NCBI GenBank assembly: GCA_951406725.2
Contig: OX597814.1
Span: 64,790,001 to 64,854,000 of the forward strand
Length of the DNA stretch: 64,000 nucleotides
Source: Octopus vulgaris
Taxonomy: Eukaryota
Direction: 5' to 3'
Shown: one piece after another, positions 6,008-60,373 of the stretch
How positions within the stretch are numbered: the stretch's first letter is position 1
Layout of the letters: the number at the start of each line of letters is the position of its first letter
The notes under the pieces: generated by a model
The model's input: the letters and a program-made list of their open reading frames with translations, nothing else
Told to the model about the DNA's origin: nothing
Database searches by the model: none
Made by a program: the position numbers and the translations under genes

Positions 6008-6212
6008 AGTTAATCCAAACACGAAAACACAAAGAGAAAACAACAACGCGAGGACGTGGAACAAATATAGTATTATTGGACGCTCAAGAAGGAAGGAAGG
6101 GAAGAAGGAAGGTTTAACGTTTCGAGCGGAGCTCTTCGTCAGAAACATAGGAAAAGGGAAAATCCAGAGAAGTGAAGACGGAGGAAAAAAATCGCCAACG
6201 GTACACACGCGA
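6008..6212 (-). mobile_element. Short non-coding insert, Penelope pseudo-LTR-like, in (TA)n
   Basis: Bounded by (TA)n on both sides, carries a hammerhead motif, and is related to 30677..30850. Confidence 0.6.
6112..6146 (-). ncRNA. Minimal type I hammerhead ribozyme motif
   Basis: Minus strand GTTT-CTGACGA-A-GAGC-TCC-GCTC-GAAAC-GTT-AAAC: helix I GTTT/AAAC, helix II GAGC/GCTC, palindromic helix III ACGT, GUU cleavage triplet. Confidence 0.8.
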
Positions 6213-7156
6213 TATATATATACAATATTCTATAATTAGATACACAATTATAATCAGGGGTCAGTTAAGTGCCTCGTCACCTACATAAAAAAAGTGTTTA
6301 TATATATATATACATATTGCTTTTTATTTTCTCGTGTCTCATTTTGTTCACGTTTTTTTTAACGTCCCATACCCATATATGCATGTATATATACATATAT
6401 ATGCAGGTATGTACGAATATGTATGTATATATATTTATTTGTATATATGTGTGTAAATTTATGTATACGTTTGATTACGCGTGCATGTGGTTTGGGTTTA
6501 TATTGTTCATCTTCAGGTCAGCCCTAAGATTAAATACATTTGAATTCAGAGACAGTCCAGATGCGACCCTACCATCTATATATCTAATATTTCTTTTATT
6601 CTTATCATACAGTCTATATTGCAGCAAGTCATCAAAGTTGTCTTTTCTATACAGCAGGATGTGACCTGAGGAAGATTTTGCTAGTATTTTTAGCAGCTTG
6701 GGGTAAAGTAAATAAGAGGGCTCACTCGTTAACTCATTTCTCTATCGAGCGTGAGATTAAACTACGGAAATAGTGGTTTTTCATCGGCACCAACACGCGT
6801 GCTCCCTGGCCGACAACGACACCTTTTGAGGGAGGCTGCGCGACCGGCGAAACACGCCTGCTACCGCCTACGTTCTCTTTATGTAATTATCTTTTGTGAG
6901 AGAACGGGGTTTTAATGTGCACGAGTGAGTAAAATGAATGTTAGGTAGCGTGTAAAAATACTGTAAGTTTGCTTTTACGACTTTTCTGTCTAGTACAGCT
7001 GGCAATCGATTATCGCTTACCTCCTCCATTTTCAACTTTCGGCCATTATTCGTCTACATTTGCACACGTCCCTATTTGCATGTATATATATGTAAGTAAA
7101 GAAAGTCCGTACGTAATACTTTCATATATATATATATATATATAATTGGTATTTTT

Positions 7157-7328
7157 ATATAAGCTTCAAGCCTATGGCAATCTCTGTGCAATGTCTAAGG
7201 AAAATAGTCTAATAACGGAGCATATAAGCCCCCGACAGAAAAAAGAAGCCTGAAGGCTTATATGCCCCGCTATTAGACTATTTTCCTTAGACATTGCACG
7301 GTGATCGCCATAAGTTTTAAGCTTATAT
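7157..7328. repeat. Long imperfect inverted repeat (fold-back)
   Basis: Arms ~7157-7230 and ~7255-7328 (e.g. GTGCAATGTCTAAGGAAAATAGTCTAATA / TATTAGACTATTTTCCTTAGACATTGCAC), ~25-nt loop. Confidence 0.92.
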
Positions 7329-7424
7329 TAAATTATTTACTATTATTTACAAGATTGTAAAATTCGGCACGGTATAACAAAACCATTCGCACCGAAAGGA
7401 TATATATATATATAAATATAACCA

Positions 7425-8339
7425 AAAAAATGGCACCTTTTCACCAAGGAAGGCCTGTGTTACGTTGACACAAGGCATGGTGCAGAATCCTGGATAAGTA
7501 CCACATTATCAAGCCTAAACTTCTGCTCCATCCAAAGTAAATAAGCATTTCAGGATCTCCAAGCTTTGTCCCAATCTTCAAACCAGACTCAATGAATTTG
7601 TATCCCTGACATTTCTATCACTCGCCATGGCTCCAAATAGCATTACAGAAGCAGGATTCTTAGTCTCAAACACACGGATACGTCAGAAGGGTTGTATGCA
7701 ATCATTCGAGAATTTCTACGATTCACCTCAACGTCCACAATGAACTCTTTCCTCGTCCACAAACTCGGGAGTTTTTCCTACACTTTGATGCTTGATGAAT
7801 GACAGAAGCTTTGGTCATCTCGTGGCTCTGATTGTTTTTACCTTAGCTGTTAGGAGGTGACGCCGTCGTTGTACACAGCTAGTCATGCCAAGATTCCTGT
7901 TCACAACTCTAGACAACATGAAAAATGGCACATCGCGTTTCTTTGGAAGAGTTGTCATGGATATAGATGGGTTGTCTTCAATCGAACCTTTGAGGCCAGC
8001 GAGAAACTCTGGATTGCGCTTGGAATCACTTCGAGTCTGGCGTTTTTTCTATAAATTTTTTCCACTTGTTCAAATTGTTTATATACACGATAAATTGTCG
8101 CTTTTGAAAGTTTCGTCAACTTAACTTTATTGGCAGTGTGCTCAGCGCCTGCCAAAACAACAATGGCGGGACGATTCTGTTGTTCCATAACTTTCTGTGA
8201 TCGAATCAGTTCGCTATTTACCTGAAAAATAAAGAAGAGGATTAGATTTTCAAGAAATCAAGGTTTTGTCAAAAACTGAAATATTAAACCCACTAAGTTA
8301 ACTGCATAAAATTGGTCCAAATTTATCTGCAAGACCCTG
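7425..8339 (-). mobile_element. 3'-truncated Tc1/mariner-superfamily element, maT (DD37D)-like
   Basis: End TA-CAGGGTCTTGCAGATAAATTTGGACC. The ORF has HTH-like KLTKLSKATIYRVYKQF, and further frames give FVDEE, VNRRNSR, KNPASVMLFG and IQDSAP. Confidence 0.8.
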
Positions 8340-8503
8340 TATAAACACACACACACGCACATATGCGCTACGATTCTCCAAGATTTTGTCACGCATGGCT
8401 GAAGTCTAATGACGCAAACAAGTAAAAGAAGAGATAGCTAGTTTGATAGATAAATAGATAGATAAATTTATGTACATAAGACTTGTGTGTTTTAATGTTG
8501 CTA

Positions 8504-8655
8504 TTGGTTCAGTCGATAGAAGGAAAATTGAACAAGTAAAAGAACAATCTCCAGAGATTGTTATTCTGTTATTAGTGTTATGTTCAGGACAAAAGTGTCA
8601 ATTCTATATAGCTCAGACAACCAGCTTATATATAGTTACCATCATGTGATAACTC
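8504..8655 (+). repeat. Left arm of ~150-bp spaced inverted repeat
   Basis: Reverse complement of 9422..9573 with scattered mismatches. Confidence 0.92.
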
Positions 8656-58030: not shown

Positions 58031-58113
58031 TTTATACCCATTGTTTAATTCTTTATACCCATTTTATACCCATTGTTTAATTGTTTATACCCATTTTATA
58101 CCCATTGTTTAAT
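58031..58113. repeat. Short minisatellite (~32-bp period, TTTATACCCAT subunits)
   Basis: TTTATACCCATTGTTTAATT three times, alternating with TTTATACCCAT. Confidence 0.9.
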
Positions 58114-58774
58114 TTCCAAGTTATTTTTCTGTATTTTTCGTGCTCTTTTATTTCATAAGAAGCAAAGTTATTAGAGATTATGTTGTTCTCAAATATCCAC
58201 AAATACACATATATTAATTATTAAAGTACGTTTGTGCATATTGTATGACTGCGTACGTATATATATATATATATATATATATATATATATATATATATAC
58301 GCGAATATGTGTTTGTACGAATATGTGTGTGTGTGCGCGAGTGTATTTTGACATGCGCTCACTCTCACACATAAAACCTATATATACGTTCATTTGCATA
58401 TACGTATAAGGTCGCATATTCTCTTGTTTTTGTTTACGTTGTATATGCCAGAATTCCGTTCTTTCCTTTACAGGACAAATGACCAAACTGCCGGAGGCAC
58501 GGCAGCCTTCCTTACTACATAGCATAATAGGAATGGGAACTTCAACATATGCAACATATCTTGCCATGAGCTTATCTAATCGAGTCCCTTATACTCTCGC
58601 TGTGTCATTGCAAGTTTTACACGAAATCTTCACCACAACCACAACTACATTTATCCACACCACCATCATTTCTTATTCGTTACTACTACTACTACTACTA
58701 CTACTACTACTACTACTACTACTACTACTACTACTACTACTACTACTACTACTACTACTACTAATAATAATAAT

Positions 58775-59125
58775 TGGAAGCATTATCATATACATTTATT
58801 TGTCGTGGTATAAAACACGGGCTACAGCAAATATTCTGCTCAATGCCACAGATTTGCTTGTCAGTTGTTTGATCTTAACCAGTTGAACATGTCCCTTAGT
58901 GGCTGACAATATATGCATTTCTCATCACGAGCAGAAGTAGTAGGGGAGCATCGTAATCATGTGCTGAAAGAAATACTTTGGGGTTTGGATAATTCACCTT
59001 TGGAAACATGGGTGTTTTGTTCAACATCCTTAAACAACCCTTATTCTAGGCCCATTTGAGCGGAATGGGCTATCGACCTGAAGAATTTTCTAACTGGGCC
59101 CCCACCTGCAAGGTCATGCGCTGTT
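58775..59125. mobile_element. Second copy of the 12363..12903 repeat
   Basis: GGTATAAAA...CAAATATTCTG...ACTGGGCCCCCACCTGCAAGGTCAT, after (TAC)n(TAA)n. Confidence 0.8.
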
Positions 59126-59998
59126 ACATCCGTCACTAATGCTAAACTTTACCAAACATTGTTTACTAACCATTGTTTACAAATGTCAGTTTACCTTAAA
59201 ATTTAATTTGGACATTGTTTTTAAAATCAATGCAATCGATAAAATTAATATAAACTCCTTATATACTTAAGTACGTGAACAAAATACTAAACTATTCAAT
59301 AGTATACTGACGATATCCTTATGACCACTACAGTCAAAATGCCTGGTGGCATTTAAGAGGTTTTATGCTCTGAACATATATCCCGCCGAGATCAGCGTTC
59401 TACCTTACTTTCGCGCCCGAGAAAAGAATGTACCAAGTATTGGAGGCTACAAGAGTCCATCTGGTGCCAAACGTGCAATTATGCGTAATTGTTTGAAATT
59501 CAATTGTTAACACTACAATAACTGTTCAACGGGTTCAGCATGTATTTCAACGTACATTGTGACTATGAGCATGACGATATACTAGCCTCCATGCGGTGTA
59601 ATGTTATAAAGTAGCAGGATCAATAGTTAATAGAAAAAGCTTGAAATAGTTTTTAGCGCTAAGACAAAGTGGGAAAGGCAACAGCCTTAATCTTTGCATG
59701 GTGCTTGAGAGAATGCTAGAAAGAAAACCTAATACGTGAGTCACTGCAATACACACCAAAATATCGATTTTACTGTGACAGTAGCCTGACCCAAATGCTT
59801 GAAGCAGTATAAACCTGAATGCTTGAAACAAGAAGCTGCATCTATTTGCGATGCATGTGTGAATATAATTTTAGTCCAGGTATGCATTTTGCTATAACGA
59901 CACAATGGGAACACTGATGATTTTAATTTTGCCTGGGATTGGGTAAATGTGTCTGTTGAATGATTGCACGATATAATACTTTTATTATTCTCTTTGTT

Positions 59999-60172
59999 CG
60001 GCGGTAAGCTGGCAGAAACGTTAGCTCGCCGGGCGTTCAAATTCCGACTAGGTCGACTTTGCCTTTCATCTTTTCGGGGTCGGTAAACTAAGTACCAGTT
60101 GCGTACTGGGGTCGATATAATCGACTGGCCCCCTTCCCTCAAAATTTTGGGCCTTTTGCCTAGAGTAGAAAA
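59999..60172 (+). mobile_element. SINE family A, internally deleted
   Basis: GGCGGTAAGCTGGCAGAAACGTTAG...GTCGACTTTGCCTTTCATC...GCCTAGAGTAGAAAAG. Confidence 0.88.
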
Positions 60173-60300
60173 GATTAACATAGACGTCAAATCACCATTA
60201 CCACGAAGAATGTGTTCTCAAGAAAAAAAAATCTCAGCAAAACGCCAAAATGTAAAAAAGAGCAAGACAAATGAAAACATACGAAACAAAAACGATTACC

Positions 60301-60373
60301 TACGTACCAATTGGTTTCACTTGTTAATATATACGTATATAAACACGTAGATACCTGAAAGATCGTCAGCCTA
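60301..60373 (-). ncRNA. Hammerhead-like motif, core boxes intact, helix II weak
   Basis: Minus strand TAGG-CTGACGA-(long spacer)-GAAAC-CAATTG-GTA-CGTA: palindromic helix III ACCAATTGGT, GUA triplet, one mismatch in helix I. Confidence 0.55.

What the first reader, a model, noticed from the sequence alone, without database searches (positions are those of the whole stretch)
6112..60373. Window-wide hammerhead landscape: each family carries its own palindromic helix III
Seen: about ten hammerhead-like motifs in otherwise dissimilar short inserts, mostly beside (TA)n. Helix III is self-complementary but differs between families: ACGT (6112, 30767), ACCGGT (~15011), ACCTAGGT (22225), ATAT (27840), ACTTCGAAGT (~52161), ACCAATTGGT (60301), and near-palindromic ACGGCTGT (53868). 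Established: minimal type I hammerheads with palindromic helix III occur in Penelope pseudo-LTRs and animal non-LTR retrozymes and cleave as dimers. Inference: this genome hosts a very large, diverse population of ribozyme-bearing non-coding retroelements, and the palindrome may act as a family-specific dimerisation code.
Basis: partly seen in the sequence, partly recalled or inferred. Interest (0 to 1): 0.75.

Follow-up and report, generated by a model that had tools for sequence, protein, structure and literature searches.

The report
Penelope retroelement hammerheads with drifting palindromes
All eight cited spots are copies of repeat families with a hammerhead (self-cutting RNA) fold, three of them tied directly to the ends of Penelope-type jumping genes; their self-complementary third stem is real and likely lets two copies pair, as already published, but it is shared between families and imperfect in some, so it is unlikely to be a family code.

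Summary
All 8 named sites belong to multi-copy families with a type I hammerhead fold. Only 3 window copies pass a strict descriptor (3 hits; mean 0.18 in 50 shuffles); the other 5 are decayed or carry altered cores. A 1.2-Mb genome sample gave 36 hits, against 4-8 in shuffles.

Three sites (15011, 27840, 30767) are ends of coding Penelope-like elements with a GIY-YIG endonuclease; one has an intact 1214-codon RT frame. Two (22225, 60301) are non-coding tandem units. So "non-coding" is only partly right.

Helix III is self-complementary beyond what a hairpin needs. That feature, and its variation between families, is published. The code idea is weak: ACGU, ACCGGU and ACGCGU are each shared by several families, the 60301 family is mostly imperfect, and a dimer must also match helix I.

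Side result: abundant families carry changes at normally invariant core positions: A6U (young, intact element, at least 19,687 motif matches), A13C and U4C. Cleavage is untested. This scan noted the code idea, and spreading after core change, before on other DNA.

The parts
6112..6146 (-). Intact minimal type I hammerhead (CUGACGA, extra A, 4-bp helix II, helix III ACGU, GUU site) in a ~205-nt insert between (TA)n runs; no ORF link found
   Evidence: 18 of 28 unselected copies carry U4C
14735..15090 (.). Foldback insertion in (TA)n: 3' end of a young Penelope-like element with a 5' inverted copy
   Evidence: 16 of 19 family loci have an inverted piece; L169 runs into a GIY-YIG frame
14984..15021 (+). 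Hammerhead-like motif, U3-A8 core, GCAA in place of GAAA (A13C), helix III ACCGGU, helix I broken in this copy
14837..14874 (-). Second, inverted copy of the same A13C motif
22100..22599 (-). Non-coding ~450-nt unit with a terminal direct partial repeat (22547-22599 repeats 22100-22152)
   Evidence: 12 of 30 family loci have a direct partial repeat
22225..22294 (-). Intact type I hammerhead, long loop II, helix III ACCUAGGU, GUA site
   Evidence: helix II pair A-U in 16, G-C in 6, G-U in 2, A.C in 3, unread in 3 of 30
26876..27646 (+). Broken 3' part of a Penelope-like ORF with GIY-YIG endonuclease
   Evidence: Pfam GIY-YIG E 2e-4, 21.8 bits, just under the 22.6 cut-off
27840..27882 (+). Intact minimal hammerhead with U3-A8 core, 6-bp helix I, helix III AUAU, AUC site, ~200 nt after the ORF
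30767..30802 (-). Decayed copy of the A6U minimal hammerhead (helix III ACGU) that ends a very abundant autonomous Penelope-like family
49194..49235 (-).
52137..52176 (+). 5'-truncated copy; family majority is a full type I hammerhead with helix III ACUUCGAAGU
53868..53911 (-). 5'-truncated copy; family majority has helix III ACAGCUGU and an A.A mismatch at the base of helix II
60300..60374 (-). Decayed copy (helix I damaged) in a non-coding ~530-nt unit with a 5' inverted piece (60517-60633); U.U at the base of helix II; helix III polymorphic in the family

Best explanation
The eight sites are scattered end pieces of repeat families that carry a type I hammerhead fold: three are the pseudo-LTR ends of coding Penelope-like elements (PLEs), two are non-coding tandem units and three are short pieces that likely come from PLEs too; the palindromic helix III likely lets two copies on one tandem transcript swap strands and cut, and it differs between lineages likely through drift under that constraint, not as a selected code. 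Shown: the fold, the copy numbers, the ORF links, the partial-tandem and inverted ends, and palindromy. Inferred: a partial-tandem source element is transcribed through two hammerheads; helix III and helix I form between the two units (double hammerhead); cleavage, probably protein-assisted and slow, trims a unit-length RNA; the element's RT/GIY-YIG protein inserts 5'-truncated or 5'-inverted cDNA at AT-rich microsatellites. No window copy has a second same-strand hammerhead of its own family, so they are probably inert.
For: Enrichment over shuffles: window 3 vs mean 0.18; 1.2-Mb sample 36 (19 palindromic; 7 from one array) vs 4-8 (0-1 palindromic). ORF links: 27840 lies ~200 nt after a GIY-YIG frame; 15011 family copy L169 runs into a GIY-YIG frame above the Pfam cut-off; the 30767 motif flanks an intact 1214-codon frame with RVT_1 above cut-off and a weak GIY-YIG match, as two copies 4,482 bp apart (L342). 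PLE hallmarks: direct partial repeats in 12 of 30 (22225) and 7 of 25 (60301) loci; inverted pieces in 16 of 19 (15011), 10 of 25 (60301), 7 of 25 (52161), 6 of 25 (53868); (TA)n after the 3' end in 21 of 25, 21 of 30 and 17 of 20 loci of three families. Palindromy beyond a hairpin: the central 4 nt are self-complementary in 10 of 15 even helices of >=8 nt, chance 0.074 each (families not independent). As monomers, helix III cannot close (ACGU, AUAU) or costs +0.4 to +6.0 kcal/mol in 8 of 9 longer forms, while their homo-duplexes give -7 to -13. Sharing: ACGU in the 6112, 30767 and L239 families; ACCGGU in 15011, L191, L202 and L008; ACGCGU in L017, L194 and L027. Literature: PMC4209133 reports dimer-dependent, weak cleavage, palindromic helix III and extreme within-genome variety; PMC11167929 reports protein-assisted cleavage.
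Against: No cleavage was tested. Three families (6112, 52161, 53868) showed no ORF or tandem unit in my sample, so their PLE origin rests on architecture alone. The two most abundant families carry core changes expected to slow cleavage (A6U in 33 of 38, U4C in 18 of 28 unselected copies), and 15011 has A13C throughout, which sits badly with cleavage being essential. In vitro, cleavage was not needed for insertion of an anole PLE (PMC11167929). The hammerheads of L342 are 4.5 kb apart, so pairing in cis is assumed, not shown. Two related arrays with compatible helix I differ in helix III (L191 ACCGGU, L337 ACUCGAGU), as a code would also predict.
Confidence: 0.72

Rival explanations
1. Family-specific dimerisation code: palindromes (with helix I) were selected to differ so that co-resident families do not cross-cleave.
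For: Hetero-duplexes of the longer helices are weak (mostly above -4 kcal/mol) against -7 to -13 for homo-duplexes. Related arrays L191 and L337 differ in helix III while staying palindromic. The L239 family shares ACGU with 6112 but has an incompatible helix I.
Against: Any two different palindromes are poorly compatible without selection. The two commonest families (roughly 42,000 and 56,000 copies, extrapolated from 18 and 24 in 1.2 Mb) share ACGU and can form 3 of 4 helix I pairs with each other. Short palindromes recur as the same C/G-centred few rather than spreading over the options. The 60301 family spread with four different centres, 7 of 25 perfect. Tandem transcripts already supply a same-family partner.
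Confidence: 0.1
2. Cleavage is dispensable or minimal in these elements; the fold and palindrome are kept for RNA pairing or protein binding, or as a passenger of the pseudo-LTR.
For: A6U sits in a young family whose 150 best endonuclease matches are 99-100% identical and whose intact copy has A6U at both ends; A13C in 33 of 33 motif copies of another young family; U4C in 18 of 28. Ribozyme mutants did not affect insertion in vitro (PMC11167929).
Against: Within the A6U lineage the variation falls where a working hammerhead tolerates it: N7 is T14/A11/C7/G6, and H17 is A33/T6/C1 and never G in 40 copies, while G5, A9, A13, A14 and U16.1 are 97-100% fixed. A6C and U4C natural variants keep low activity (PMC3088659).
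Confidence: 0.25
3. The longer motifs act as ordinary monomeric hammerheads, and helix III is simply a hairpin.
For: 8-10-nt helices can close 2-3 pairs around a 3-4-nt loop; most invertebrate retrozyme hammerheads cleave efficiently (PMC7229834 abstract); odd-length and mismatched forms exist.
Against: A hairpin does not need a palindromic loop, yet 10 of 15 have one; the ACGU and AUAU forms have no loop at all.
Confidence: 0.15
4. Chance matches in AT-rich repeat DNA.
For: Five of the eight window copies fail the strict descriptor; no Rfam hammerhead among the 150 matches shown.
Against: Shuffle and reversed-pattern controls; family majorities restore the fold; compensatory helix II change.
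Confidence: 0.01

Closest known systems
Minimal and palindromic-helix-III hammerheads in pseudo-LTRs of metazoan Penelope-like elements (Cervera and de la Pena 2014, PMC4209133; read: main text parts 1-3 of 4, supplement PDF part 2 of 3)
   Same: Type I fold, extra base after A9, U3-A8 variant, loopless or palindromic helix III, many families per genome, mostly single truncated copies; its alignment already shows different palindromes within one genome (Aedes, Schistosoma, Latimeria) and ACGU shared widely.
   Different: Here A6U, U4C and A13C cores are the majority in whole families (none in the 44 rows of the alignment that I saw), and several families have a mismatch at the base of helix II.
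Neptune-type C-terminal EN+ PLEs (Craig et al. 2021, PMC8557442; read: passages)
   Same: RT, Cys linker and C-terminal GIY-YIG in one frame, partial tandem, 5' inversions, microsatellite targets, hammerhead near the 3' end (L342).
   Different: Clade not tested with a tree; the A6U core is not mentioned in the passages read.
Animal non-LTR retrozymes (Cervera and de la Pena 2020, PMC7229834, part 1 of 6 and passages; Li, Clavereau and Pollet 2026, bioRxiv 10.64898/2026.07.22.740005, parts 1-2 of 5)
   Same: Non-coding units with a type I hammerhead, in tandems or as dispersed monomers, proposed to derive from PLE pseudo-LTRs; U.U at the base of helix II is described in axolotl.
   Different: Units here are 450-530 nt and mostly 1-2 copies long; circular RNA not shown.
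Dimer-cleaving small hammerhead variants of PLEs (Lunse, Weinberg and Breaker 2017; not held, seen only as a title and as summarised in review PMC6765202)
   Same: Short palindromic stem III, cleavage as dimers.
   Different: Could not check whether it tests heterodimers or lists A6U or A13C cores.

Membership tests
Type I hammerhead ribozyme | CUGANGA (or U3-A8) and GAAA cores | tested here: met
   Commonest form in the 22225, 27840, 52161, 53868 and 60301 families, and present in the 6112 window copy
Type I hammerhead ribozyme | Invariant core in the 30767 and 15011 families, and in most 6112-family copies | tested here: not met
   A6U 33 of 38; A13C 33 of 33; U4C 18 of 28. These are hammerhead-like variants.
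Type I hammerhead ribozyme | Helices I, II, III and a UH cleavage site | tested here: met
   Family majorities; helix I only 2-4 bp in the 15011 family
Type I hammerhead ribozyme | Site-specific self-cleavage | not testable with these tools
   Only assembled contigs were available
EN+ Penelope-like element | One ORF with RT and C-terminal GIY-YIG upstream of the hammerhead | tested here: met
   30767 family: L342; 15011 and 27840 families: endonuclease part only
EN+ Penelope-like element | ORF link for the 6112, 22225, 52161, 53868 and 60301 families | tested here: inconclusive
   No shared upstream ORF in 30-54 copies each
EN+ Penelope-like element | Partial tandem (pseudo-LTR) or 5' inversion, microsatellite-flanked | tested here: met
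   rare in the 6112 (1 of 25) and 27840 (2 of 20) loci
EN+ Penelope-like element | RT falls in a PLE clade | not tested
   DKG, YIDD and Cys-linker motifs seen in L342; no tree built
Non-LTR retrozyme | Non-coding tandem units each with a type I hammerhead | tested here: met
   60301 family: L057 holds two hammerheads 531 nt apart; 22225 family: partial tandems
Non-LTR retrozyme | Abundant linear and circular monomer RNA | not testable with these tools
   no raw-read RNA run listed
Family-specific dimerisation code | Palindrome unique to, and fixed within, each family | tested here: not met
   Shared ACGU, ACCGGU, ACGCGU; polymorphic 60301 family

The most novel reading that the evidence does not exclude
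Highly successful, recently active Penelope-like elements use hammerheads with changes at 'invariant' core positions (A6U, A13C, U4C) that are still under selection as ribozymes, working only as protein-assisted dimers, with helix I plus helix III together restricting cleavage to same-family partners; the genome would then hold dozens of natural, partly orthogonal two-part ribozyme switches.
Probability: 0.15. Interest if true: 0.65.

Novelty: new member of a known kind. Interest (0 to 1): 0.34.

Why it matters
The landscape itself repeats a published pattern in a new genome. What it adds is test material for an open question: what the hammerhead does for Penelope-like elements. An intact, young element whose two hammerheads both carry A6U, with free variation at N7 and H17, allows a direct test of whether cleavage matters and whether the element's protein or a dimer rescues a damaged core. 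The set of natural palindromes also makes the homo- versus heterodimer experiment easy.

Tried and rejected
Rfam scan: the 150 of 450 matches shown held no hammerhead family, mostly microsatellite-driven miRNA models; 300 not seen.

My first reading of 15011 as a plain foldback without a core was wrong; it has a U3-A8 core with A13C.

The tree of 25 copies of the 60301 family was unresolved (1 of 22 branches starred), so the order of helix III changes is unknown.

No ORF was found upstream of five families; the tblastn was swamped by unrelated repeats. Pfam found nothing in one upstream piece of the 27840 family.

No G3-C8 or A3-U8 core hit in the window. The GAAACCGGT site at 60933(-) is a repeat without a recognisable core.

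Sequencing runs: no RNA holder listed; contigs laid on L342 cannot show ends or expression.

could not merge overlapping loci (L334/L335, L337-339), so up to two of the 26 clusters may be single loci, and at least one (L263) looks false. The CUGUNGA core was added to the descriptor after I saw the 30767 family; with CUGANGA alone the sample gives 22 hits vs 0-2.

Literature searches for A13C (0 papers), A6U/CUGUNGA (5 listed, none on natural hammerhead cores by title and abstract start) and heterodimer/palindrome (7 listed) found no prior statement of the code or of these cores. The key 2017 paper was not held, and supplements other than that of PMC4209133 were not read.
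Full report
1. Observation. The window lies in a 2.8-Gb, microsatellite-rich animal genome (G000:C1:64790001-64854000); earlier scan notes call it octopus-like, which I did not test. All eight helix III strings are present. A first descriptor with the CUGANGA core found two copies. A palindrome-blind descriptor that also allows U3-A8 and CUGUNGA cores, with helices I and II of at least 4 bp, finds three (6142-, 22290-, 27846+); 50 block-wise dinucleotide shuffles gave 9 hits in all and never 3. 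In 120 stretches of 10 kb taken at round coordinates it finds 36 hits, 19 palindromic, 7 of them in one array; five shuffles gave 4-8 hits, 0-1 palindromic. Genome-wide patterns give 1,078 matches against 58 reversed and 19,687 against 0. The motif class is real and abundant.

2. Site by site, from the 19-30 best genomic copies each. 6112: intact, ACGU, in a ~205-nt insert; among unselected copies U4C outnumbers U4 by 18 to 9 of 28. 22225: intact, ACCUAGGU, in a ~450-nt unit with a terminal direct repeat and a compensatory A-U/G-C change in helix II. 27840: intact U3-A8 minimal form, ~200 nt after a GIY-YIG frame. 30767: decayed copy of a family with U at position 6. 52161 and 53868: truncated at the core; majorities are ACUUCGAAGU and ACAGCUGU. 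60301: ~530-nt unit with a 5' inverted piece; helix III is ACCAUUGGU in 8, ACCAAUGGU in 7, ACCAUGGU in 4, ACCAAUUGGU in 3 and other in 3 of 25. 15011: U3-A8 core with GCAA in 33 of 33 motif copies, doubled by inversion. A ninth decayed family copy lies at 49194-49235.

3. What carries them. The longer 15011 copy L169 continues into a GIY-YIG frame (E 2.6e-5, above cut-off). The 30767 motif follows an endonuclease whose 150 best matches are 99-100% identical (18,182 candidates). L342 is a partial tandem with an open 1214-codon frame (RVT_1 above cut-off, weak GIY-YIG, DKG, YIDD and Cys-linker motifs) and two A6U hammerheads 4,482 bp apart; three more loci show the same motif. The 22225 and 60301 families are non-coding tandem units. 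For 6112, 52161 and 53868 I found no ORF, but 7 of 25 and 6 of 25 copies of the last two have inverted pieces. Partial tandems, 5' inversions and microsatellite targets are described PLE features (PMC8557442, passages).

4. The palindrome. Of 26 multi-locus clusters in about 2 Mb, the commonest helix III is a perfect palindrome in 14, tied with one in 2, odd-length with paired arms in 3, has one mismatch in 5, two in 1 and is unpaired in 1 (merging of overlapping loci was imperfect). The central four bases are self-complementary in 10 of 15 longer helices against 0.074 by chance (families not independent). Monomer closure is impossible or mostly unfavourable, and homo-duplexes of the longer forms are stable. 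This supports dimer pairing, published for PLE hammerheads (PMC4209133; PMC3088659 Fig. S8 legend; review PMC6765202). The 2014 supplement already lists different palindromes within single genomes.

5. The code. By geometry (inference), a double hammerhead pairs both helix III and helix I between units, and two identical units must be self-complementary; different lineages will therefore tend to be incompatible without selection. Against a selected code: ACGU is used by the 6112, 30767 and L239 families, ACCGGU by 15011, L191, L202 and L008, and ACGCGU by three others. The two commonest families share ACGU and 3 of 4 helix I pairs. The 60301 family spread with four centres. A related endonuclease-bearing locus (L198) has a decayed ACCGGU motif like that of 15011, which suggests descent. 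For the code: the related arrays L191 and L337 have compatible helix I but differ in helix III. I put it at about 0.1. Earlier notes e1-8664523 and e1-9829413 reached the same verdict on other genomes; they are not independent evidence.

6. Altered cores. Of the first 100 listed of 19,687 matches, 94 have U6, 4 A6 and 2 C6, with all four bases at N7 (counted by eye). In 38-40 unselected copies, N7 and H17 vary while G5, A9, A13, A14 and U16.1 are nearly fixed and H17 is never G. This looks like continued selection on the fold after A6U, but it does not show cleavage. Natural A6C and U4C variants keep low activity, and U10.1.U11.1 is known (PMC3088659). An anole PLE hammerhead needed its protein to cleave and was dispensable for insertion in vitro (PMC11167929, parts 1-2 of 4). 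Searches for A13C and A6U found no description, but the 2017 paper on PLE variants was unavailable. Note e1-8672774 reports a similar pattern for a family elsewhere in this genome.

7. Verdict. The landscape is real and belongs to a known kind: PLE pseudo-LTR hammerheads and their non-coding derivatives. The code is not supported. The altered cores in young, intact elements are the most useful lead. Interest 0.34.

Noticed in passing
window 15306-15366 (-), 54200-54250 (-), 44190-44260 (+), possibly 16995-17050 (-): Hammerhead-like motifs with GAAA before CUGANGA. The 15306-15366 copy can be drawn in site-G-C order with a 3-nt linker, like type SGC (PMC10085705, passages). Multi-copy except the 17 kb one. 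Lead came from earlier scan notes, which read such motifs as split-core and tie them to Naiad or HERO elements; wiring not resolved here.
   Followed up: partly
L342 (G000:C8:57973000-57980000): Intact partial-tandem Penelope-like element of a very young, very abundant family, with A6U hammerheads at both ends.
   Followed up: yes
L191:2307-4513 and L337: Tandem arrays with a ~353-nt period and canonical type I hammerheads (ACCGGU; ACUCGAGU); the second dominates the rows listed. Typical retrozyme candidates.
   Followed up: partly
window 22340-22400 (-); L015: The 22225 unit holds a second, weaker hammerhead-like stretch (CUGCCGA core, 12-nt helix III) about 100 nt upstream of the main one, in 27 copies; may be chance.
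   Followed up: no
53868 and 60301 families; several clusters: Many families have unpaired bases on both sides at the base of helix II (A.A, U.U, A.C).
   Followed up: partly
window 4772-5506 (-), 47851-48234 (-), 50900-51750, 54700-54900: Fragments that look like Tc1/mariner transposases, by recalled motifs in the translations; not tested against a library.
   Followed up: no
window 1813-2307 (-), 61694-62149 (-): Fragments resembling LINE reverse transcriptase ends, by recalled motifs.
   Followed up: no
window 13075-14630, 17430, 19415-19520, 21750-21855, 35450, 37040-37350, 57350-57625, 60085: Many copies of one short tRNA-like repeat, probably a SINE.
   Followed up: no
window 60880-60990 (-): Multi-copy repeat with GAAACCGGY but no hammerhead core that I could place.
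   Followed up: partly
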